This document shows positions 2,637 through 21,304 of a DNA stretch of 22,799 bases, piece by piece. Source of the stretch: Bacteroidia bacterium (GTDB lineage: Bacteria; Bacteroidota; Bacteroidia; Bacteroidales; VadinHA17). The notes under the pieces are model-generated. The model was not told the origin of the DNA. It saw only the letters and a list, made by a program, of their open reading frames with translations, and did no database searches. The position numbers and the translations under genes were made by a program. Within the stretch, counting starts at the first letter, position 1; each line of letters starts with the position of its first letter. The DNA is taken from NCBI GenBank assembly GCA_026391215.1, contig JAPLDX010000024.1, positions 1-22,799 on the forward strand. Reading direction: 5' to 3'.

Positions 2637-3740
2637 TTAATTGAATTTATCAGGAAACATTTTTTTAATATCTTTTTCTGCAGGTTTGCAAATGCCTTTT
2701 TCGGTAATAAGACCGGTAATATATTTTGCCGGCGTTATATCAAATCCATAATTTACAGCTTTGGTATTCTCTGGGCAGATAAGAACTGATCCTATCTTTC
2801 CCCCGGAAAAGCCTGTTACATTTTTCACTTCTTCAGGATCCCGCTCCTCAACTGTGATCTCTGTCATTCCATCACTTATTGAAGCATCAAGTGATGATGA
2901 GGGGAAGACTGAATAAAACGGTACATTATTTTCAGAAGCTGCAAGAGCTTTCAGATATGTTCCAATCTTGTTTGCCACATCCCCTTTGCTGGTCGTGCGG
3001 TCACTGCCGACCATAACAATATCTACCATCCCATGCTGCATAAGGTGTCCACCCGTATTATCAGAAATCAGTGTATGAGGAACACCGGCCTGTCCCAGCT
3101 CCCATGCAGTCAGCCTGGCTCCCTGGTTTAACGGGCGTGTTTCATCAACCCAGACATGAACAGGAATACCTTTCTCATGGGCAAGATATATTGATGATGT
3201 CACTGTTCCGTAATCAATGCACGCGAGCCAGCCTGCATTGCAATGGGTAAGGATATTTACAGGATTTTTAATTTTGCTTATTTCTTTAATAACTTCCAGA
3301 CCGTGAGTACCGATCTGCCGGCAATTTTCCTCTTCTTTTTCGCATATTTCAAGGGCTGCCTGAAGTGCTGTGGCGGAAAGGGAGTATTCCGGAACATTTT
3401 TATTAAGTTTTTCCATTATGTAATTAACTGCCCAGGAAAGGTTGACAGCAGTCGGCCGGCATGAAATAAGATATCTTGCAGCATTTTCAAGATGAAGGTG
3501 AGGATTTGTTGTGGCGGTCATTTCAAGCGTTGCAAGATATATGCCAAATGCGCCCGCGGCACCAATAACAGGAGCTCCGCGTATGATCATTTCTTTTATG
3601 GCATAGAAAATATCATCGACAGTGCGCATTTCCCTGATCTCAAAAAAGAACGGCAGCTTTTGCTGATCAATTGCTCTGACAATCTCCGGATTGGATTCAT
3701 CCAGCCAGATACTCTTATAGTTCTTACCGCCTACAAGCAT
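2637..3740 (-). CDS. mtnA: S-methyl-5-thioribose-1-phosphate isomerase
   Basis: DQQKLP, IRGAPVIG, RPTAVNL, LTHCNAGWLA, DETRPLNQGARLTAWEL, NKIGTY, FDITP motifs. Confidence 0.95.
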   Translation of the reverse strand: MLVGGKNYKSIWLDESNPEIVRAIDQQKLPFFFEIREMRTVDDIFYAIKEMIIRGAPVIGAAGAFGIYLATLEMTATTNPHLHLENAARYLISCRPTAVNLSWAVNYIMEKLNKNVPEYSLSATALQAALEICEKEEENCRQIGTHGLEVIKEISKIKNPVNILTHCNAGWLACIDYGTVTSSIYLAHEKGIPVHVWVDETRPLNQGARLTAWELGQAGVPHTLISDNTGGHLMQHGMVDIVMVGSDRTTSKGDVANKIGTYLKALAASENNVPFYSVFPSSSLDASISDGMTEITVEERDPEEVKNVTGFSGGKIGSVLICPENTKAVNYGFDITPAKYITGLITEKGICKPAEKDIKKMFPDKFN

Positions 3741-14757: not shown

Positions 14758-15885
14758 ATGTTTGAGAATAATATTCTGGATTTTCAAGGGCTTGAAGTAA
14801 AGGTATCTGACCACGCTAATGAGGGAATACTGGATATCCTGAGCCATGCCGTACAGGGATCGGAGGGTGGAATGAGATTCCAGCTTCAGAATATTCCTGC
14901 TCGTATTGAGGCTTATGGCAACCAGATCAGGTTTGTTTCGCTTTATAAAAAGAACAAAATCACCGGAACGGTAGGGGCATGCTTCCGGGTTTCAGGACAG
15001 GGAGCTCTCAGATATCCATCAACATATATCAGGTACCTGGCCATGCAGTCGACATATCAGTCAGAGATAAATTGGCGGAAGAGAGAGAAAGCAGTGATAA
15101 AGCAGGAACCGGATGATTCGTTCAAGCAGAAGACCCTGGAGATCTTCAGCAAGCCTCATATTCTGAAACTTCCTGGTGTTTTTGAAGAAGATAAGCATAT
15201 AATGTACGGCTTTATTGAAAGCATGAATGAAAGATCAAAAAACCTTGTTAATCAAGCCGGATATGAATACATAAGATCCTTTCTGACGGTTGCTTTCAGC
15301 CGCTTCTCACCAAAAGCTGATCAGCGTGTCTCTAAAATTGAAGATACCGGAAAGGCAAAGATGACCGACCTCCTTAACGATTTTTACAAAGACTATTCTT
15401 TCTTTGCAGCTGATTATGCTTTTTTTGAAAACAGATATTACGTACTGAAAGAAAACGGTGAAATCATTGCAGGCGCCTGCGCTATTCCCACTACTTATAA
15501 GGTTTATGATGTTCCGGGTATATGGGGATGGGTTATGATGAAAGTGCTACCTGTTACACCATATTATAAAAGATTATTTAAGCCGGGTGAATTCAGATAT
15601 CTTGTTTTTGATGCAATCTATTGTAAAAAGGGACGGGAATCAGTATTGGGTAGCCTTTTTGAGTCAGCCTGTGCTACTGAAGGATTTCATACCGGACTGA
15701 CATGGCTTGATGACCGTAGCGAGCTATATGATAAAATAAGGACAGAAGTCAAAATGGGTGCCCTTAACAGGATGCTTAACGCAAAACCGGGACTTGTCTA
15801 TACTAAATTCGTCAACCTTACAGACGAGGAAAAGGAACGTTTTTATGATGCCCCGGCATATATATCCGGATTTGACTTCTCATAA
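14758..15885 (+). CDS. Hypothetical protein, probable tandem GNAT-like fold
   Basis: 375-aa ORF with two GNAT-like beta segments (FVSLYKKNKITGTVGA..YIRYLAM..NERSKNL; YYVLKENGEIIAGACA). Fold call is tentative. Confidence 0.6.
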   Translation: MFENNILDFQGLEVKVSDHANEGILDILSHAVQGSEGGMRFQLQNIPARIEAYGNQIRFVSLYKKNKITGTVGACFRVSGQGALRYPSTYIRYLAMQSTYQSEINWRKREKAVIKQEPDDSFKQKTLEIFSKPHILKLPGVFEEDKHIMYGFIESMNERSKNLVNQAGYEYIRSFLTVAFSRFSPKADQRVSKIEDTGKAKMTDLLNDFYKDYSFFAADYAFFENRYYVLKENGEIIAGACAIPTTYKVYDVPGIWGWVMMKVLPVTPYYKRLFKPGEFRYLVFDAIYCKKGRESVLGSLFESACATEGFHTGLTWLDDRSELYDKIRTEVKMGALNRMLNAKPGLVYTKFVNLTDEEKERFYDAPAYISGFDFS

Positions 15886-15940
15886 AAATAAAGCCCGCAG
15901 TCGTCCAGATCCCGAGTACTCGGGAGGGACTTCGGAGGGC
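15884..15940 (-). terminator. Extended hairpin containing a perfect 16-bp palindrome; probable terminator or REP element
   Basis: TCCCGAGT|ACTCGGGA at 15910-15925, nested in GTCC/GGAC and GCCC/GGGC pairs; followed on the minus strand by TTTATTTTT. Confidence 0.6.
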
Positions 15941-15945
15941 GAAGG

Positions 15946-16013
15946 TGGGGCGTACTGGGATCGAACCAGTGACCTCTTGCCTGTCATCCGCCGGCTGGCG
16001 GACCGAAGCAGCT
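15946..16013 (-). pseudogene. Degenerate tRNA-Val(GAC) copy C: D-loop remnant + 16-nt hairpin + intact 3' half
   Basis: Minus strand AGCTGCTTCGG-TCCGCCAGCCGGCGGA-TGACAGGCAAGAGGTCACTGGTTCGATCCCAGTACGCCCCA; the last 41 nt are 34/41 identical to the 3' half of the intact tRNA-Val. Confidence 0.85.
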
Positions 16014-16019
16014 TATTTT

Positions 16020-16262
16020 TTAAGCCAACAGGGAACGAATAAATTCTCGCCCCCTGAATGATTTTAACTGTTTTTCACGAAGCAAAGCTTCTCTTTTTGT
16101 ATATAAAGTTTCAGAGTATTTTATAATCCAGGGCTTATATTTTGCTGTCCATCCTTTGTTCCGATTATCATTATGAGCTTTTAGCCGAGCCTCCGGATTT
16201 GCTGAATACCCAATATAAATCTTATCATAATCTGAAGAATATAATACATAAACAAAATACAT
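16020..16262 (-). CDS. Small stand-alone GIY-YIG nuclease (UPF0213/YhbQ-like)
   Basis: FVYVL...YIGYS motif pair, RLKAHN (conserved Arg/His), WTAKYKPW, EALLREKQLK (metal-binding Glu); 80 aa. Confidence 0.92.
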   Translation of the reverse strand: MYFVYVLYSSDYDKIYIGYSANPEARLKAHNDNRNKGWTAKYKPWIIKYSETLYTKREALLREKQLKSFRGREFIRSLLA

Positions 16263-16288
16263 TTTTTTAATATTTAGCGAGACTATTG

Positions 16289-16363
16289 TGGGTTGTACTG
16301 GATTCGAACCAGTGACCCCTACCCTGTCAAGGTAATGCTCTAAACCAACTGAGCTAACAACCC
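16289..16363 (-). tRNA. tRNA-Val(GAC), intact
   Basis: GGGTTGTTAGCTCAGTTGGTTTAGAGCATTACCTTGACAGGGTAGGGGTCACTGGTTCGAATCCAGTACAACCCA; full cloverleaf, anticodon loop TTGACAG. Confidence 0.95.
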
Positions 16364-16371
16364 ATAATTAT

Positions 16372-16432
16372 GAGGACGTTTTTTGCCTGTCATCCGCCGG
16401 CTGGCGGACTGAACCAGCTGAGCTAACGTCCC
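16372..16432 (-). pseudogene. Degenerate tRNA-Val(GAC) copy A: 5' part + 16-nt hairpin + anticodon, T-arm absent
   Basis: Minus strand GGGACGTTAGCTCAGCTGGTTCAG-TCCGCCAGCCGGCGGA-TGACAGGCAAAA-AACGTCCTC; GGGACGTT can pair with AACGTCCT. Confidence 0.8.
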
Positions 16433-16441
16433 GGTAATCAG

Positions 16442-16449
16442 CAAATGTA
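16442..16449 (-). promoter_or_regulatory. -7 promoter element (TACATTTG) for the tRNA/GIY-YIG block
   Basis: Exact TAnnTTTG match 9 nt upstream of the first base of copy A. Confidence 0.65.
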
Positions 16450-16520
16450 ATAATTTTTTTAATAATTCTACACAAAAACCGCTGGTATAACAATTCCTGA
16501 ATCAGGTAGTTACAAAAAAC

Positions 16521-16585
16521 GACTAAATAAATAGTCATTTTTCTTTAAAAATATTTGCATGACTATAAAAATAGTCATAGCTTTG
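16521..16585 (+). promoter_or_regulatory. blaI promoter with two palindromic operators (GACTA-N6-TAGTC)
   Basis: Operators at 16521-16536 and 16559-16578 (ATGACTAT-AAAA-ATAGTCAT); TTTG 16554-16557 and TAGCTTTG 16578-16585 with a 20-nt spacer. Confidence 0.8.
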
Positions 16586-16606
16586 TAATGAAGGATTGAT
16601 AATAAA

Positions 16607-16674
16607 ACGGCTCACGGCAAACGGCTTATATAATGATTATGGCCACATGCCGCGCACCGCACACCACAAGCCGA
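16607..16674. repeat. Two oppositely oriented heptamer-period arrays
   Basis: ACGGC at 16607, 16614, 16621; RCCR(C/A) at 16642, 16649, 16656, 16663, 16670. Confidence 0.65.
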
Positions 16675-16693
16675 TAACTTAATATTGATAATT

Positions 16694-17071
16694 ATGCAAT
16701 TAACTAAGGCAGAAGAACAGGTTATGCAGATTTTGTGGGAGATGGAGGAGGGACTAGTCAAAGATATCCGGGATCAGTTTCAGGATCCAAAACCCGCAAG
16801 AAATACTGTATCCACTGTAGTAAGAGTTCTTGAAAAGAAAGGTTTTATAGGACACAAGGCTTACAGCAATGTTCACAGCTATTTCCCGCTTGTTTCGAAG
16901 AACGAATACTCAAAAAAGCAGCTTTTCGGGCTTATGGAGAGTTATTTTGACAATTCGTTTCCCGCCTTAACATCATTCTTTGCAAGGGAAAAAGATCTGT
17001 CGGTAAAAGAGCTTGACAGGCTCCTTGATGAAACCAGAAAGGAATTAAAAAGAAACAAAAAGAGAAAATAA
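16694..17071 (+). CDS. BlaI/MecI/CopY family transcriptional repressor
   Basis: LTKAEEQVMQILW, NTVSTVVRVLEKKGFI, YFPLVS..EY, YFDNS; ATG at 16694. Confidence 0.95.
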   Translation: MQLTKAEEQVMQILWEMEEGLVKDIRDQFQDPKPARNTVSTVVRVLEKKGFIGHKAYSNVHSYFPLVSKNEYSKKQLFGLMESYFDNSFPALTSFFAREKDLSVKELDRLLDETRKELKRNKKRK

Positions 17072-19164
17072 TGGAAGCTTTTACAACTTACCTTTTAAAA
17101 TCAATTGTTTGGCTGACAGGATTTGCAGTGATCTATCTTCTGTTTTTACGGAATGAGCGATTCTTCCAGCTTAAGAGAGTATATCTGATTTTCGGAATAC
17201 TTGTCTCTTTGATTCTTCCGGTTATATCAGTTCATTACCTGGTAGATGTGCCTGCACCCGCAGTAAGCAATATCAATTTAGATCAGACAGAAATTTCTGC
17301 CTCAGTTAAGGCGGCCGGACCAATTACAACAAAATCATTCGATTACCGGATGATTTTACTTCTTCTCTATCTTTCAGGTGTTTTGTTCCTTGGATACAGG
17401 ATCATTCGCCACATTATATTACTTCGTAAAGCAATAGGAAAGGCAAAAATAAATAACAGGGACTCTGCAAAACTGGTCAGGATTTCAGGATTTCCCGCCT
17501 CATTCTCATTTTTTAATTATGTTTTTATCAATCCTTCAGTGGATGAGGCAGAAGTTGAAGAGATAATGAACCATGAGCTCGTTCATGTGAACCAGAAACA
17601 CTGGCTGGACCTCCTGCTTGCGGAGATGCTTCGTATGTTCCAGTGGATAAATCCTTTTGTATGGATTTATACAGGTTTTATCAGGCTGAACAATGAATAC
17701 CTGGCGGACAGGATGGCGCTGCAGCGCACTTCCAATCCGGCAAATTACAAGGCGACCCTTGTAAACCAGCTATTCAGCACTCCGGTGATCAGCCTGTCCA
17801 ACTCATTCAACTATTCACTTAACAAAAAACGATTTGACATGATGAAAAAAATAATCACATCGCCTTACAGGAAACTGAAGGTATTGTTAGTACTGCCGGT
17901 AATTGCAATTATTCTTTATGCTTTTGCAACACCGGAATACAGTTACATTCCTTCGTCAGAAAGTGCTATTAATCCTTTGACAATTTATGAAACACAACCG
18001 ATCATCCAGAAAGAAGTTAAAGGAATTGTGCTTAACAAGGAGGGAAAGCCTCTTGCCGGAGTTGTTATTATGAGTTCAGGTACTTCCGGAAATGCCCGCG
18101 GGACAGAGACCGGTGCGAATGGACAATTTACCATAACCGATGTACAGGATGAAGCATCACTAATGTTTTATCGCAGAGGGTACAAACCATTGACCCTTAA
18201 ACCAGATTTTGCATCCGAAATGAAAGTTACTATGGAAGTGGACCCTGAATATAAGGCACCCCTGGAAACAAGTACCAATACTCCCGGAATACCTACACCT
18301 CCACAGGAACTGGTTGTAATTGACGGCGTAATTTCAGAGAACTCCTATTTTGAAGTTATGAAGGAACTTGGTTATAACCTGGGTCCGGTTAAATCATTAT
18401 TCGGAAAAGAAGCAATAGATAAATATGGAGATAAAGGAATTAATGGAGTCCGGGAAATAACCACCAGGAAGAAAGCAATTGAAATGGGTCAGAAAGTTCC
18501 TTTGCCCAGGCTGGCGCCTGCAGATTATCCGACATTCCAAGGTAAACGATTCACCGGTTTTTCAGACTGGATTTGCACCCAGACAAAATATCCGGAGGCT
18601 GCAAAAACCAGAAATATTGAAGGTTGGGTCACTGTAAATTTCACCGTTGAACTGGATGGCTCTATGAGTGATATCAAATCAACACTGGGAGATCCGTTGC
18701 TAGTTGAGGAAATTAAAAGGGTGATCTATTCTGCTCCTAAATGGGATCCGCCACAGAATCCTGAAGTAGATTCTCCATTTAACTCAAGCGTCACTCTGGA
18801 ATTCAAACTGCCTGATAGGATTAGCAGGGATGAGCCATTTGTTGTGGTTGAACAGATGCCAATGTATCCGGGTGGTGATGTAGCACTATTATACTTCATT
18901 GAAAACAACACAAAATATCCGGAGGAAGCTAAAGCTCAAAAAATTGAAGGGAGAGTTATTGTAAGGTTCATTGTTAATACAGAAGGTTATACTGAGGGTA
19001 TTTCAGTAATAAAAGGAGTTCACCCCCTTCTTGATGCCGAAGCAGTAAGGGTAATAAGCATTATGCCAAAATTCGAACCAGGAATGCAGGGAGGCAAAGC
19101 AGTCAACGTATGGTATATGGCTCCGGTAAATTTTTTATTGACCAAAACCGATACGCCAAAATAA
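17071..19164 (+). CDS. BlaR1-like M56 peptidase fused to a carboxypeptidase-regulatory-like domain and two TonB C-terminal domains
   Basis: FSFFNYVF, HELVH (HExxH), WINPFVW, EYLAD, LNKKRFDMM; VKGIVLNKEGKPLAGV; two YPE.AK...IEG.V.V.F.V repeats. Confidence 0.92.
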   Translation: MEAFTTYLLKSIVWLTGFAVIYLLFLRNERFFQLKRVYLIFGILVSLILPVISVHYLVDVPAPAVSNINLDQTEISASVKAAGPITTKSFDYRMILLLLYLSGVLFLGYRIIRHIILLRKAIGKAKINNRDSAKLVRISGFPASFSFFNYVFINPSVDEAEVEEIMNHELVHVNQKHWLDLLLAEMLRMFQWINPFVWIYTGFIRLNNEYLADRMALQRTSNPANYKATLVNQLFSTPVISLSNSFNYSLNKKRFDMMKKIITSPYRKLKVLLVLPVIAIILYAFATPEYSYIPSSESAINPLTIYETQPIIQKEVKGIVLNKEGKPLAGVVIMSSGTSGNARGTETGANGQFTITDVQDEASLMFYRRGYKPLTLKPDFASEMKVTMEVDPEYKAPLETSTNTPGIPTPPQELVVIDGVISENSYFEVMKELGYNLGPVKSLFGKEAIDKYGDKGINGVREITTRKKAIEMGQKVPLPRLAPADYPTFQGKRFTGFSDWICTQTKYPEAAKTRNIEGWVTVNFTVELDGSMSDIKSTLGDPLLVEEIKRVIYSAPKWDPPQNPEVDSPFNSSVTLEFKLPDRISRDEPFVVVEQMPMYPGGDVALLYFIENNTKYPEEAKAQKIEGRVIVRFIVNTEGYTEGISVIKGVHPLLDAEAVRVISIMPKFEPGMQGGKAVNVWYMAPVNFLLTKTDTPK

Positions 19165-19234: not shown

Positions 19235-21304
19235 TTATTTCCGGATGAAAATAAAATCCCCACCCTCATCTCCAACATTTTGGATAACACCATATTGAGG
19301 CACATTGGGACTGTTGTTCATTACAGCCTGCTTGAAACTGCTGAACAGAATCTCAGAGGGGAGGAACCTTTCCTCGTTTTCATCAAGCCTCTCCACGAGA
19401 TATTTTATAAACATACTTTCATCAGGCACTTCCTGCAAAATGCCGCTTGTTATAGCTTTCCTGCTTGAGAGTTCATAGAGCTTCTCAATTCCCCTTGGTG
19501 TATCGGTGAAAGCAGCTCTTGATTTGAAAATGGCACCACTGAAGCATGCGTCAGCTATAAGGATTGTATGTTTTGTCTGAATACTTCCTATATCATCCCT
19601 TAAGGAGCTGTTGCTGTACCAGTTAACAGAATTACTTTTCAAAGCATCAGAAGGCAGCCAGTAACCCACTTTACCCTTTTCATCCCAGTTTCCATGGCCT
19701 GCATAGAAAATAAGCAGATTATCGTTGGGGGTAAGCTTTTTTTTGAAATTATCAAATGCCATAATTATCTCTCCCCGTGTAGGATTCTTGAGAAAGATAA
19801 CATGATCTTTTTCAAAGGTATATTTTGACAGAAGGACATTAAAAAGACTTTCAGCATCTTTTACAGGATTATCAAGATCCGAAATTTCATCACTCTGATA
19901 TTCATTTATTCCTATCAGGAGTGCATAATATTTACCTTTTGCTATTTCAGGAACATTTACACCAGGCACATTTGCATTGTCTGCTGTGCAATCAATAATA
20001 AGCTTCTGCTCATTCATAATTCCTTTATTATTGATTGCCACAAGGGCTATTATGTTCTCTCCTTTTACAAGATCATGATTGAACTGAAAAATTCCGCCTT
20101 CCGATAGTTTTATGAGATTCTTATCAATAAGGAAAGTATTTATTCCTACCGGATCTGAAACGCGGCCAACAATAAGAATGGAACTTTTGTCATGAGTAAC
20201 CCTTCCGCGTGTTGCGACAGGGGAAAAGATTTCCATCATGGCATTGTTCCTCAGAACTCCGTCTTTTTGTGGTTTAATAATTGGCTGATTATCAGAAGTT
20301 GTTGTTATTGTTGTTTTTTCTGTAGTGGCAATCCACTGTGTTTCATCAACACCGGACAGAACCCAGGTGTCAAGTTTTTCAGAATGAAGCGAAGCAGAAA
20401 TAAAATCCGGATGCAGCGGGGAAAATTCAGTCGTTAGAACAATCTGTCCCTGTTTGGCTGATTGTGACAGGATCTTGCCGGTGGCAGCGTCCCACAGAAT
20501 TATCATCTGATCGTGCCCTCCGCTCAGGAGATATTTACCATCAGGGCTGTAATCAATTGTCTGAACCCATTCTTTATGGCCTTTAAAAGAATTAATGATG
20601 TTAAGGTCAGGAACCGAGGAGGTATAAATCATTCCGTCATAACCGCAGCTGGCAATAACTGTGCCGTCAGGATTAAATTCAAGATCACGCACCCATCCGT
20701 TATGGATCTGCTTTGATTTAATAATACTCCAGCTGGTTGTATTCCAGAGAATTACAGTATTATCGCCTCCTCCCGAAGCAAGAATTTTTCCATCCGGGCT
20801 GAACCTGACCACATTGACATCCTTTCTGTGTCCTTTCAACTCGAACAACAGCGTATTCTGCTTTAAATCCCATATAAATACAGATTTATCAGTGCCTCCT
20901 GATGCAAGTAGTCTGCCATCAGGACTTATATCAAGAGTTTTAACCGGGCCCGTATGACCCTTTAAATTTCCTGCAATACTTGCAGCCTCAGGATTCCATA
21001 CTGTTATAATGTTATCTTCGCCGGCAGATACAAGGGCAGATTTATCAGGGGAAAAAACCGCTGCGTTCTGACGGCTTTTCAATCCGGTAAGAGTCTTGTA
21101 TATTGTCCCTTTTTCTGCATTCCAGATAATTACATTATTATCTGATCCGCTCGTTATTATATAATTTCCATCAGGAGTAAATGACGCAAAATAGATCTGA
21201 TGGTTTGCTTCGCCAAAAGTCTTCTTGACATTGAAGCCAAATTGGCCTGCGGCTGTTACCCAGATCCCGGATAAGACAGAAAATAAAATCAATCTGCGCC
21301 ACAT
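19235..21304 (-). CDS. Exported WD40 beta-propeller + Ig-like + caspase-family (peptidase C14) protein
   Basis: Signal peptide ending AAG-Q; seven xSPDG...SG..D..V.IW-type repeats; YALLIGINEY, LDNPVKDA, FYAGHG and DACFSG catalytic dyad. Confidence 0.92.
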   Translation of the reverse strand: MWRRLILFSVLSGIWVTAAGQFGFNVKKTFGEANHQIYFASFTPDGNYIITSGSDNNVIIWNAEKGTIYKTLTGLKSRQNAAVFSPDKSALVSAGEDNIITVWNPEAASIAGNLKGHTGPVKTLDISPDGRLLASGGTDKSVFIWDLKQNTLLFELKGHRKDVNVVRFSPDGKILASGGGDNTVILWNTTSWSIIKSKQIHNGWVRDLEFNPDGTVIASCGYDGMIYTSSVPDLNIINSFKGHKEWVQTIDYSPDGKYLLSGGHDQMIILWDAATGKILSQSAKQGQIVLTTEFSPLHPDFISASLHSEKLDTWVLSGVDETQWIATTEKTTITTTSDNQPIIKPQKDGVLRNNAMMEIFSPVATRGRVTHDKSSILIVGRVSDPVGINTFLIDKNLIKLSEGGIFQFNHDLVKGENIIALVAINNKGIMNEQKLIIDCTADNANVPGVNVPEIAKGKYYALLIGINEYQSDEISDLDNPVKDAESLFNVLLSKYTFEKDHVIFLKNPTRGEIIMAFDNFKKKLTPNDNLLIFYAGHGNWDEKGKVGYWLPSDALKSNSVNWYSNSSLRDDIGSIQTKHTILIADACFSGAIFKSRAAFTDTPRGIEKLYELSSRKAITSGILQEVPDESMFIKYLVERLDENEERFLPSEILFSSFKQAVMNNSPNVPQYGVIQNVGDEGGDFIFIRK

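What the first reader, a model, noticed from the sequence alone, without database searches (positions are those of the whole stretch)
15884..16449. GIY-YIG nuclease embedded in a tRNA-Val array between hairpin-substituted pseudo-tRNA repeats: candidate undescribed nuclease/tRNA-like element
Seen, minus strand 5'->3': promoter TACATTTG; pseudo-tRNA A (16432-16372); intact tRNA-Val(GAC) (16363-16289); 80-aa GIY-YIG with catalytic motifs intact (16262-16020); pseudo-tRNA C starting about 6 nt after the stop (16013-15946); hairpin terminator. A and C share a 37-bp direct repeat (27 bp identical) 406 bp apart. In both, the 10 nt from the 3' D-stem to position 32 (AGCATTACCT in the intact tRNA) are replaced by TCCGCCAGCCGGCGGA directly before TGAC. 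A supplies the 5' 24 nt and C the 3' 41 nt of a different tRNA-Val(GAC) isodecoder. There is no integrase, transposase or intron. Known: GIY-YIG domains serve in homing, repair, restriction and Penelope elements; small stand-alone members are poorly characterised. Inference: a minimal selfish cassette that targets tRNA genes and spreads or amplifies through hairpin-marked repeats (analogous to REP/RAYT), carrying a working tRNA that compensates for the disrupted one. Alternatively the tRNA-like RNAs are cofactors, guides or inhibitors of the nuclease. I cannot confirm novelty without a literature or database search.
Basis: partly seen in the sequence, partly recalled or inferred. Interest (0 to 1): 0.85.

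Follow-up and report, generated by a model that had tools for sequence, protein, structure and literature searches.

The report
Hairpin-tagged GIY-YIG cassettes inside tRNA genes
A tiny nuclease gene with its own 16-base palindrome sits inside a broken tRNA-Val gene beside an intact spare copy, and the same design recurs at many tRNA genes in several bacterial phyla, which suggests a small mobile element that I could not find described.

Summary
On the minus strand lie a hairpin-substituted pseudo-tRNA (A), an intact tRNA-Val(GAC), an 80-aa GIY-YIG gene and a second hairpin-substituted pseudo-tRNA (C). A 37-nt direct repeat (35/37 identical) marks A and C, 406 bp apart.

It is not a one-off. 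Three of 5 small GIY-YIG paralogs in this genome lie 25-57 nt downstream of a tRNA. Two of the others are followed by a copy of that tRNA's 3' part with a GC hairpin in the T-loop. Of 150 full-length homologous ORFs examined, 101 have an intact tRNA within 320 nt and 113 a GC hairpin within 130 nt. Random windows give 22/2000 and 161/2000.

The hairpin type follows the protein clade. The window's palindrome lies beside 70 of 84 relatives from Bacteroidota, Ignavibacteriota, CPR phyla and others, next to Val, Met, Gly, Asn or Lys tRNA genes. Orthologous loci in the genus are empty, partial or full. Tandem arrays occur.

The palindromes are also dispersed REP-like repeats (0-72 per genome).

Best reading: an integrase-free selfish cassette (Slx1-like nuclease plus cognate palindrome) living in tRNA genes. 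Mobility and mechanism are inferred, not shown. I found no description in print.

The parts
16442..16449 (-). TACATTTG motif, about 10 nt upstream of pseudo-tRNA A. It fits the Bacteroidota -7 promoter consensus TAnnTTTG (consensus recalled, not tested).
   Evidence: Read directly. No tool here models Bacteroidota promoters.
16372..16432 (-). Pseudo-tRNA A. It holds the 5' 24 nt of a second tRNA-Val(GAC) isodecoder ('type 2'), then the 16-nt palindrome (16393-16408), then 10 nt of anticodon loop and 3' stem, then a short remnant that can pair with the 5' acceptor strand.
   Evidence: (D3, D2). Not recognised as tRNA by ARAGORN or Rfam. An intact type-2 gene is seen in L045.
16288..16363 (-). 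Intact tRNA-Val(GAC), 'type 1'. It is one of two ARAGORN Val(GAC) calls in this assembly; the other, on C66, is unlike it and has an encoded CCA end.
   Evidence: ARAGORN, Rfam 66 bits, genome-wide tRNA list.
16020..16262 (-). 80-aa stand-alone GIY-YIG nuclease of the Slx1/UPF0213-like minimal type. It starts 25 nt after the tRNA, with no terminator between them.
   Evidence: Pfam E 3.1e-15. Invariant Y5, Y16, G18, R26, H30, E63, K67 in 21 homologs. AF2 pLDDT 95. Best folds are UPF0213, HIGLE and Slx1.
15945..16013 (-). Pseudo-tRNA C. It holds 11 nt of D-loop sequence, then the 16-nt palindrome (15987-16002), then the 3' 42 nt of the type-2 tRNA-Val(GAC). It begins 6 nt after the GIY-YIG stop codon.
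   Evidence: (D1, D2). Its 3' part and trailer match the intact type-2 gene and trailer of L045.
15977..16013 (.). Direct repeat, copy 1 (37 nt: D-loop piece, palindrome, anticodon-loop piece).
   Evidence: family D2.
16383..16419 (.). Direct repeat, copy 2 (35/37 identical to copy 1, 406 bp away).
   Evidence: family D2.
15910..15925 (.). A second palindrome, TCCCGAGTACTCGGGA, just beyond C's native trailer. It is a member of a dispersed REP-like family, not specific to this locus.
   Evidence: 25 sites of this class in the own genome.

Best explanation
The locus holds a minimal, integrase-free selfish cassette. It consists of a Slx1/UPF0213-like GIY-YIG nuclease gene and its cognate 16-bp palindrome, lodged in a tRNA gene. 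Here the resident 'type-2' tRNA-Val(GAC) gene is split into A (5' part) and C (3' part). Between them lies a 406-bp unit carrying an intact replacement tRNA-Val(GAC) and the nuclease gene, bounded by a 37-nt repeat that contains the palindrome.

Proposed working (inferred, not shown):
1. The gene has no promoter of its own and is transcribed by read-through from the tRNA promoter.
2. The nuclease acts on the palindrome, or on dyad-symmetric tRNA-gene arms, as a structure- or sequence-specific nick or break.
3. That break stimulates recombination across the short tRNA-derived repeats.
4. A unit in circular or tandem form integrates by a Campbell-type crossover in the tRNA-derived arm. This leaves one intact tRNA and one hairpin-disrupted partial copy. 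It excises by the reverse reaction, and it expands into tandem arrays by unequal exchange.
5. The conserved tRNA sequence serves as a portable homology arm, so each lineage stays faithful to one tRNA species while moving between genomes.
6. The palindromes also occur as dispersed REP-like copies, which would make the nuclease the analogue of a RAYT.
For: Shown:
1. Three of 5 paralogs in this genome lie 25-57 nt downstream of a tRNA on the same strand. The genome has 39 ARAGORN tRNA calls in 3.39 Mb.
2. Of 69 homolog hits in 59 loci from 41 related genomes, 36 lie within 150 nt of a tRNA. Of the 51 with a tRNA anywhere in the locus held, 50 are on the same strand as it.
3. Of 150 full-length ORFs, 101 have an intact tRNA within 320 nt, 113 a GC hairpin within 130 nt, and 62 a hairpin abutting a partial tRNA piece. 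Random windows give 22/2000 and 161/2000.
4. Hairpin class follows the protein tree: 8 changes among 107 labelled tips, against 28-34 in 1000 shuffles.
5. 70 of 84 ORFs found across Bacteroidota, Ignavibacteriota, CPR phyla, Bdellovibrionota and Pseudomonadota-labelled MAGs carry the window's TCCGCC/TCCGTC palindrome within 130 nt. The neighbouring tRNA is Val, Met, Gly, Asn or Lys.
6. tRNA identity follows protein subclade: 27 changes, against 50-59 in shuffles.
7. The orthologous locus downstream of the 375-aa ORF varies. It holds one clean tRNA (L042), pseudo-A plus tRNA (L043), an intact type-2 gene plus a solo hairpin fragment (L045), or a full cassette (L052 and the window).
8. Tandem arrays exist: six near-identical 343-bp units in G003, and the last 121 nt of contig C82 repeat an earlier stretch with period 355.
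9. C's trailer matches the native type-2 trailer, as a Campbell-type product predicts.
10. Catalytic residues are invariant. The fold is closest to the structure-specific Slx1 nucleases.
11. The replaced or interrupted tRNA segments are whole arms, loop centres or short dyads.
Against: - No movement was observed. Only contigs, not reads, were available, so circles, excision and copy-number change could not be tested.
- The 17 paralogs in the CPR genome G079 are old: the only pair that aligned over more than 120 nt is 70% identical. There is no sign of a recent burst.
- Palindrome copy number is not tied to the cognate gene. G022 (27 copies), G014 (21) and G028 (14) gave no TCCGCC-clade GIY-YIG in the searches run there (window protein in all three; A1 profile in G022 only).
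- In G007 none of the 15 palindrome places sampled is near a tRNA.
- 49 of 150 ORFs have no intact tRNA within 320 nt, and two paralog clades, those of C42 and C88, mostly lack tRNA pieces.
- An 80-aa domain has no separate DNA-binding module.
- If the nuclease cut a circular donor at the palindrome, simple ends-in gap repair would erase the palindrome, so the exact chemistry remains unexplained.
- The loci are related to each other, and the genome contigs set was selected by similarity to the window protein.
Confidence: 0.55

Rival explanations
1. Classical homing endonuclease. The nuclease recognises and cuts the naive tRNA gene itself. The cassette is copied in by double-strand-break repair. 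The palindrome merely replaces, and so immunises, the target site in the occupied copy.
For: - Each protein subclade is faithful to one tRNA species.
- The hairpin replaces a defined 6-17-nt segment of the tRNA.
- In the window, the intact 'type-1' tRNA differs from the broken 'type-2' gene at 4 of the 10 replaced positions (read). This could make it resistant.
- Phage T4 SegB is a GIY-YIG homing enzyme in a tRNA cluster (PMC2330249, listing abstract).
Against: - An immunising scar need not keep one sequence, yet the same 16-bp palindrome is conserved across phyla while the tRNA and the position within it change.
- In most loci the intact neighbour is identical to the disrupted copy outside the hairpin, so it would remain a target.
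- In L013 the roles of the two isodecoders are reversed.
- The protein lacks the DNA-binding domains of known homing enzymes.
Confidence: 0.2
2. Domesticated host nuclease. A Slx1-like repair or processing enzyme is simply co-transcribed with tRNAs. REP-like palindromes accumulate independently near tRNA genes, and the partial tRNA duplications are by-products of recombination at those palindromes.
For: - The palindromes are dispersed repeats, mostly away from tRNAs and GIY-YIG genes, in G007 and in the own genome.
- Solo hairpin-disrupted tRNA pieces exist without a nuclease gene nearby (C18, C130, C131; L043, L045).
- The G079 paralogs are old and each sits at its own tRNA.
- Fusions of this family to tRNA methyltransferases are reported (PMC1564403, passages).
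Against: - Distribution is patchy: 26 of 41 related genomes have a match, with 0-7 matches each.
- The orthologous locus shows presence and absence.
- Whole gene units occur as tandem arrays.
- The palindrome lies within 130 nt of 70 of 84 ORFs across phyla, against 8% of random windows for any GC hairpin.
Confidence: 0.13
3. RNA-level system. The hairpin-bearing tRNA-like repeats are RNA partners of the nuclease (inhibitor, guide or cofactor), as in type III toxin-antitoxin loci where tandem RNA repeats precede an endoribonuclease.
For: - Arrays of 3-4 hairpin units lie upstream of the gene in several loci (L013, L016, L018, L024, L026, L078).
- Hairpin type co-varies with protein clade.
- A structural neighbour, plant HIGLE, is recalled to cut RNA (fold match; the activity is recalled, not checked).
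Against: - The hairpin lies upstream in some loci and downstream in others, at variable distance.
- Pseudo-copies are truncated at different points and cannot fold as tRNAs.
- The tRNA duplications are unexplained by this reading.
- There are no matches above cut-off to defence or toxin families.
Confidence: 0.06
4. Assembly artefact or chance repeat.
For: The genome is a 135-contig metagenome assembly, and such cassettes often lie at contig ends.
Against: - Contigs of three runs (one study) bridge the parts.
- The same architecture appears in many independent assemblies, including near-complete ones with 5-10 contigs (G003, G004) and an isolate record (L100).
Confidence: 0.01

Closest known systems
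REP elements and their RAYT transposases (REPtrons); recalled from the literature, no paper read here
   Same: Short GC-rich palindromes are dispersed through the genome. A small nuclease-type gene is flanked by copies of its own palindrome. The palindrome type goes with the enzyme clade.
   Different: RAYTs are HUH/Y1 enzymes of the IS200/IS605 type, not GIY-YIG. RAYT genes are not lodged in tRNA genes and do not come with partial tRNA duplications. Here the gene can be multi-copy (17 in a 1.5-Mb genome).
Free-standing GIY-YIG homing endonucleases, e.g. phage T4 SegB in the tRNA gene cluster (PMC2330249, abstract in listing; PMC13096335, abstract in listing)
   Same: A GIY-YIG catalytic domain. 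The gene lies among tRNA genes. SegB promotes inheritance, and reportedly amplification, of the tRNA region.
   Different: Seg enzymes are recalled to be far longer, with DNA-binding modules, and are phage-borne. No cognate palindrome and no hairpin-disrupted tRNA copy is described for them. The window protein is 80 aa of catalytic domain only and matches the intron-endonuclease NCBIfam model only weakly (16 bits against a cut-off of 56).
Slx1 / bacterial UPF0213 minimal GIY-YIG nucleases (PMC1564403, passages read; PDB 1ywl, 1zg2, 6seh, 7wme)
   Same: Nearest in sequence (1ywl, E 5.8e-5) and in fold. A minimal stand-alone domain without the C-terminal Asn. Slx1 is structure-specific and maintains tandem rDNA repeats, which resembles the tandem arrays seen here.
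   Different: Eukaryotic Slx1 has a RING domain and needs Slx4. The bacterial members were predicted to act in break repair. In the passages I read, no tRNA-gene context, palindrome or mobility was described.
Genomic islands that integrate into tRNA genes by tyrosine integrases (recalled)
   Same: Insertion in a tRNA gene, with a duplicated tRNA segment, so that one intact gene remains. Crossover sites favour dyad-symmetric arms.
   Different: No integrase in the window. The whole unit is about 350-450 bp, and a palindrome marks the disrupted copy.
GIY-YIG-encoding insertions in rRNA genes of CPR bacteria (PMC11270868, passages read)
   Same: GIY-YIG ORFs lie in insertions of structured-RNA genes that are not introns. 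The insertions lie mostly at the top or base of stem-loops, in the same CPR phyla.
   Different: Those are in rRNA, not tRNA. The passages I read describe no palindrome, no duplication and no intact spare copy. Supplements were closed, so overlap with this family could not be checked.

Membership tests
GIY-YIG nuclease superfamily (Pfam PF01541) | The GIY and YIG motifs, a catalytic Arg, a His/Tyr and a Glu on the alpha/beta GIY-YIG fold. | tested here: met
   Pfam E 3.1e-15, 56.7 bits against a cut-off of 22.6. Y5, Y16, G18, R26, H30, E63 are invariant in 21 homologs. AF2 model pLDDT 95, with three strands and helices. Folds match GIY-YIG structures.
Slx1/UPF0213 cluster of minimal GIY-YIG domains | A stand-alone domain, closest to UPF0213/Slx1 rather than UvrC/I-TevI, without the C-terminal Asn (criterion from PMC1564403). 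| tested here: met
   Best PDB sequence hits are 1ywl (5.8e-5), SLX1 homolog 7wme and 1zg2. Foldseek ranks 1zg2, 7wme and Slx1 above I-TevI and UvrC. Residues 64-80 hold no Asn.
Homing endonuclease of the I-TevI/Seg type | A catalytic domain joined to a DNA-binding module, and site-specific cleavage of an empty allele. | tested here: not met
   The protein is 80 aa with only the catalytic domain. NCBIfam intron-endonuclease model: 16.3 bits against a cut-off of 56. Cleavage cannot be tested with these tools.
REP/RAYT (REPtron) | An HUH/Y1 transposase-like gene flanked by its REP palindromes. | tested here: not met
   The enzyme is GIY-YIG, not HUH. The flanking and dispersed palindromes are present, so it resembles a REPtron but is not a member.
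Integrase-mediated tRNA-gene island | A tyrosine or serine recombinase gene within an element bounded by tRNA-derived att repeats. | tested here: not met
   No recombinase among the 21 window ORFs scanned with Pfam. The unit between the repeats is 406 bp.
Group I intron in a tRNA gene | An intron ribozyme inserted in the anticodon loop. | tested here: not met
   No intron family matched in 15500-16900 at E<=10. The hairpin is 16 nt and replaces stem sequence.
Type III toxin-antitoxin or a known defence system | A match to a known toxin or defence protein family, plus an RNA repeat array. | tested here: inconclusive
   PADLOC gives only weak partial matches (PDC-S14 at 1e-3, UzuA at 0.017). Repeat arrays exist in some relatives but not in the window.

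The most novel reading that the evidence does not exclude
This is a previously unrecognised class of integrase-free mobile elements. An 80-aa Slx1-like GIY-YIG nuclease and its cognate 16-bp palindrome colonise the dyad-symmetric arms of tRNA genes, and possibly rRNA genes. They keep the host alive by leaving or carrying an intact tRNA copy. They spread between phyla using the conserved tRNA sequence as a homology arm, and they seed the dispersed REP-like palindromes of these genomes. It would be a GIY-YIG counterpart of REP/RAYT, with the smallest autonomous mobile unit known (about 350-450 bp).
Probability: 0.35. Interest if true: 0.9.

Novelty: new variant of a known kind. Interest (0 to 1): 0.8.

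Why it matters
Bacterial stand-alone GIY-YIG proteins (UPF0213, Slx1-like) have had no assigned role since structural-genomics days. This work gives them a concrete, testable genomic context: tRNA genes, a clade-specific palindrome and partial tRNA duplications, seen in Bacteroidota, Ignavibacteriota and the genome-reduced CPR phyla. One 1.5-Mb CPR genome holds 17 copies.

If the cassettes are mobile, four things follow:
- They would be among the smallest autonomous elements known.
- They would be a new source of REP-like repeats.
- They would be a cause of tRNA-gene turnover, pseudo-tRNA arrays and contig breaks in metagenome assemblies.
- A compact nuclease with a defined 16-bp palindromic partner site would be a simple system for studying structure- or sequence-specific cleavage.

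Tried and rejected
- **Homodimer prediction** for the nuclease (to support binding of a palindrome): no verdict, score 0.20 against a mark of 0.42 (queue full; 72, 76, 81).
- **Reads.** Only Logan contigs of four runs of one study could be laid. The joints listed at 15973-16413 are short pieces (side 20-24 nt) with other letters between the sides. They look like ordinary tRNA-Val genes of other organisms and are no evidence of excision.
- **Count of TCCCGA-type palindromes across relatives:** the machine gave no answer and I did not repeat the call. That class was counted only in the own genome.
- **Phage collection:** only two Staphylococcus phage records, at 33% identity, so there is no sign of a phage vector.
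- **NCBIfam and PADLOC:** nothing above cut-off.
- **Considered and rejected:** integrase island, tRNA intron, assembly artefact and chance repeat (see the membership tests).
- **Ends-in gap repair of a circle cut at the palindrome:** rejected as the full mechanism, because it would erase the palindrome.
- **'The element always carries a different, resistant isodecoder':** rejected as a general rule. It holds for the Val(GAC) loci only.
- **Literature.** Nine searches found no description of this architecture: GIY-YIG with tRNA gene/hairpin/mobile; with downstream of tRNA/Bacteroidetes; with COG2827; with partial tRNA; with YhbQ; with REP-associated/palindromic; with Candidate Phyla Radiation; UPF0213 alone; and with tRNA pseudogene/truncated tRNA/remnant. 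The library holds only open-licence PMC papers and bioRxiv, and supplements were closed.
Full report
**1. What is in the window**

Reading the minus strand from 16449 to 15900, the order is:
- a TACATTTG motif;
- pseudo-tRNA A (16432-16372);
- an intact tRNA-Val(GAC) (ARAGORN 16288-16363; Rfam 66 bits);
- 25 nt of spacer;
- an 80-aa ORF (16262-16020), which is a GIY-YIG domain (Pfam E 3.1e-15);
- 6 nt of spacer;
- pseudo-tRNA C (16013-15945);
- C's trailer and a second palindrome (15925-15910).

A and C share a 37-nt direct repeat, 35/37 identical and 406 bp apart. At its centre is the 16-nt hairpin TCCGCCAGCCGGCGGA. The hairpin occurs exactly twice in the window, against 0.01 expected from shuffles. 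It has no other exact copy in the 3.39-Mb genome.

In both copies the hairpin replaces the 10 nt that run from the 3' D-stem to the start of the anticodon loop. Rfam does not see A or C even at E<=10. The rest of the window is ordinary housekeeping: permease, Lgt, ROK kinases, IspD and a BlaI/BlaR1-like pair. It has no recombinase.

**2. A and C are the two ends of a real second tRNA-Val(GAC) gene**

I searched 61 genomes of the genus with the neighbouring 375-aa ORF and inspected 20 loci.
- L045 has, at the same place, an intact 'type-2' tRNA-Val(GAC). Its 3' part and trailer equal C and C's trailer, and its 5' 24 nt differ from A at one base. A solo hairpin fragment follows it, and there is no nuclease gene.
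- L042, the closest relative (82% aa identity in the flank gene), has only one clean 'type-1' tRNA between the same flanking genes.
- L043 has an A-like piece plus type 1, without a nuclease gene.
- L052 (the same place as L015) has an A-like piece, type 1, a GIY-YIG gene and a hairpin-disrupted type-1 3' piece.
- Fourteen of the 20 loci showed no tRNA within the 1.5 kb held downstream of the ORF.

The locus is therefore polymorphic for every stage: empty, scar and full. In the window the whole module is inverted relative to these relatives.

**3. The pattern repeats within this genome**

The genome has 5 small GIY-YIG paralogs and 39 ARAGORN tRNA calls.
- Three paralogs lie directly downstream of a tRNA on the same strand: Val-GAC at 25 nt, Leu-TAA at 41 nt and Arg-CCT at 57 nt.
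- One is convergent with tRNA-Asn, about 216 nt away.
- One has no tRNA nearby.

Behind the Leu and Arg paralogs lies a copy of the 3' part of that same tRNA with a long GC hairpin inserted in the centre of the T-loop. Contig C82 ends inside a second unit: its last 121 nt repeat 3528-3648 with period 355. The unit is therefore tandem or circular in the reads.

**4. The pattern repeats in relatives and in other phyla**

- With the window protein, 26 of 41 related genomes had matches, 0-7 per genome, and several were in tandem.
- In the 59 loci I held, 36 of 69 hits were within 150 nt of an ARAGORN tRNA and 42 within 300 nt. Of the 51 hits with any tRNA in the locus held, 50 were on the same strand as it.
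- A scan of one genome per species found 154 relatives. The best 80 loci come from Bacteroidota, Ignavibacteriota, many CPR/Patescibacteria phyla, and MAGs labelled Bdellovibrionota and Pseudomonadota.
- I pooled the full-length ORFs, dropping hits shorter than 180 nt or with internal stops. Of 150, 101 have an intact tRNA within 320 nt, 113 have a GC hairpin within 130 nt, 62 have a hairpin abutting a partial tRNA piece, and 49 have both that and an intact tRNA.
- As a control, 2000 random 240-nt windows of the own genome gave 22 with a tRNA and 161 with such a hairpin.

The general layout is one or more partial tRNA copies interrupted by a hairpin, one intact copy of the same tRNA, and the nuclease gene between or beside them. 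The intact tRNA is upstream in 26 of 67 ORFs of the relatives set and 18 of 86 of the genome contigs set. It is downstream in 7 and 38.

**5. The hairpin belongs to the protein; the tRNA is the host site**

- On a FastTree of 149 ORFs, hairpin class changes 8 times among 107 labelled tips, against 28-34 in 1000 shuffles. Related sequences share labels, so this overstates independence.
- The stronger point is this: 70 of 84 ORFs of the window's clade, across all the phyla listed, have the TCCGCC/TCCGTC palindrome within 130 nt. Most often it is the perfect 16-bp palindrome with an AGCT centre. The adjacent tRNA, meanwhile, is Val-GAC, Met, Gly-CCC, Asn or Lys, and the position of the hairpin within the tRNA differs.
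- Other clades carry other palindromes: the TCCCGA...TCGGGA, CCTGCC...GGCAGG, TTCCGC...GCGGAA and TCACGC...GCGTGA types.
- tRNA identity in turn follows protein subclade: 27 changes against 50-59 in shuffles, n=95.
- The central four bases occur in both orientations, even within one locus (L015).

**6. Where the hairpin goes**

In 21 disrupted copies both flanks map to one tRNA. In these the hairpin does one of the following:
- it replaces the whole anticodon arm (Val-TAC, Pro-GGG);
- it replaces 8-11 nt on the 5' side of the anticodon loop (Val-GAC, Gly, Lys, Asn);
- it replaces 10 nt on the 3' side of the anticodon loop (Met);
- it replaces part of the T-arm or T-loop;
- it is a pure insertion in the D-loop (Arg).

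L014 has lost its whole D-arm to the hairpin. Several replaced segments are themselves short dyads, for example 3-nt arms around a 4-nt centre in Val type 2, Gly and Met. This last point was noticed after the fact and rests on few independent cases.

**7. Arrays**

G003 is a 10-contig assembly. It has a solo hairpin piece, an intact tRNA-Pro(GGG), and then six near-identical 343-bp units. Each unit holds Pro 45-75, a terminator, the GIY-YIG gene, Pro 13-27 and the hairpin. The last hairpin is followed by Pro 45-75 and a different, presumably native, trailer. Several loci have 3-4 tandem units of '5' tRNA part plus hairpin' upstream of the intact tRNA.

**8. The palindromes are also dispersed repeats**

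- The pattern TCCGCC-N2-6-GGCGGA occurs 0-72 times per genome in the 41 relatives. The reversed-pattern control gives 0-2.
- In G007, which has 72 copies, I sampled 15 places (17 copies). None is near a tRNA, and most sit at the centre of longer imperfect palindromes in intergenic DNA.
- Genomes with many copies but no cognate-clade gene in the searches run exist: G022, G014 and G028 (window protein in all three; A1 profile in G022 only).
- The own genome has 25 TCCCGA-class palindromes, one of them in the window. Three are solo hairpin-disrupted pieces beside tRNA-Pro(CGG), tRNA-Gly(CCC) and tRNA-Pro(GGG) with no nuclease gene nearby.
- A 1.5-Mb CPR genome (G079) has 21 palindromes and 17 small GIY-YIG genes. 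Ten of the 17 lie within 135 nt, on the same strand, of nine different tRNA genes. The paralogs are old: the only pair that aligned over more than 120 nt is 70% identical.

**9. The protein**

- Y5, Y16, G18, R26, H30, E63 and K67 are invariant in 21 homologs.
- The AlphaFold model is confident (pLDDT 95).
- Nearest solved structures are bacterial UPF0213 proteins, plant HIGLE and Slx1. I-TevI and UvrC rank lower.
- It has no domain beyond the catalytic one.
- The 2006 survey of the superfamily places such proteins in the Slx1 cluster and predicts a repair role. In the passages I read it does not mention tRNA genes, apart from a TrmH fusion (PMC1564403).

**10. Interpretation**

The shown facts fit a selfish cassette made of the nuclease and its palindrome that lives in tRNA genes. 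One model accounts for most of them: a unit in circular or tandem form that crosses over with the resident tRNA gene within the tRNA-derived arm. It explains:
- both orientations;
- the retained intact tRNA;
- the retained hairpin in the partial copy;
- the native trailer behind the partial copy (seen in the window and in G003);
- the arrays;
- the clean 'empty' loci.

In the window, the 406-bp unit bounded by the 37-nt repeat is what such a circle would be.

What the nuclease cuts is inferred only. The conservation of the palindrome across changing tRNAs favours the palindrome or dyad-symmetric DNA. The fidelity of subclades to one tRNA is also compatible with classical homing. I put 0.55 on the cassette model, 0.2 on classical homing, 0.13 on a domesticated nuclease with bystander repeats, 0.06 on an RNA-level system and 0.01 on artefact.

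**11. Novelty**

Nine literature searches found no description of this architecture. The nearest reports are:
- GIY-YIG ORFs in non-intron insertions of CPR rRNA genes (PMC11270868, passages);
- T4 SegB (listing abstract).

The library is limited to open-licence papers and preprints, and supplements were closed. The claim is therefore 'not found', not 'not in print'.

**12. Limits**

- Most genomes are metagenome assemblies, and some stretches read N.
- The loci are phylogenetically related.
- The genome contigs set was chosen by similarity to the window protein.
- My hairpin and fragment detectors use fixed thresholds and miss imperfect stems.
- No raw reads, no RNA data and no experiment bear on activity.

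Noticed in passing
window 15910-15925; own genome contigs C9, C16, C18, C24, C65, C84, C88, C104 and others: TCCCGAGTACTCGGGA and close variants form a dispersed REP-like palindrome family, with 25 sites of the class in this genome. They often sit at the centre of longer imperfect palindromes.
   Followed up: partly
own genome C18:34823, C131:12196, C130:38652: Solo pieces of '5' tRNA part plus TCCCGA-type hairpin' lie just beside intact tRNA-Pro(CGG), tRNA-Gly(CCC) and tRNA-Pro(GGG). No GIY-YIG gene is nearby. They could be scars or non-autonomous units.
   Followed up: partly
window 15886-16684 compared with L042, L043, L045: The whole tRNA-Val module between the 375-aa ORF and the BlaI-like gene is inverted in the window relative to three relatives.
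   Followed up: no
L109, L115, L119, L139, L140, L146 (CPR records): tRNA-Asn(GTT) genes next to the cassette are split at 34/35 by roughly 190-320 nt. This looks like an intron in the anticodon loop.
   Followed up: no
G079 (genome of locus L124): A 1.5-Mb Patescibacteria genome carries 17 small GIY-YIG genes and 21 copies of the palindrome. That is an unusually high load for a reduced genome.
   Followed up: partly
window 16521-16578: Two 18-nt repeats (GACTA-N-TAGTCAT type), direct and inverted, lie upstream of the BlaI-like repressor gene (16685-17071) and are conserved in L042. They are probably its operators. The next gene (17071-19164) joins a BlaR1 M56 peptidase domain to two TonB C-terminal domains.
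   Followed up: no
window 19235-21304 (-): A 689-aa protein joins WD40 repeats to a caspase-like Peptidase_C14 domain.
   Followed up: no
own genome C66:3195-3270 and C39:9003-9101: C66 has a second tRNA-Val(GAC) with an encoded CCA end and a very different sequence, possibly foreign or from contamination. The 99-nt 'tRNA-Asn' that ARAGORN calls on C39 looks like a false call.
   Followed up: no
L025/L040 (G025:C3): A tandem region holds two GIY-YIG copies 623 bp apart and several tRNA-like units that ARAGORN reads as odd anticodons (Phe-AAA, '???'). These are probably rearranged tRNA copies.
   Followed up: no
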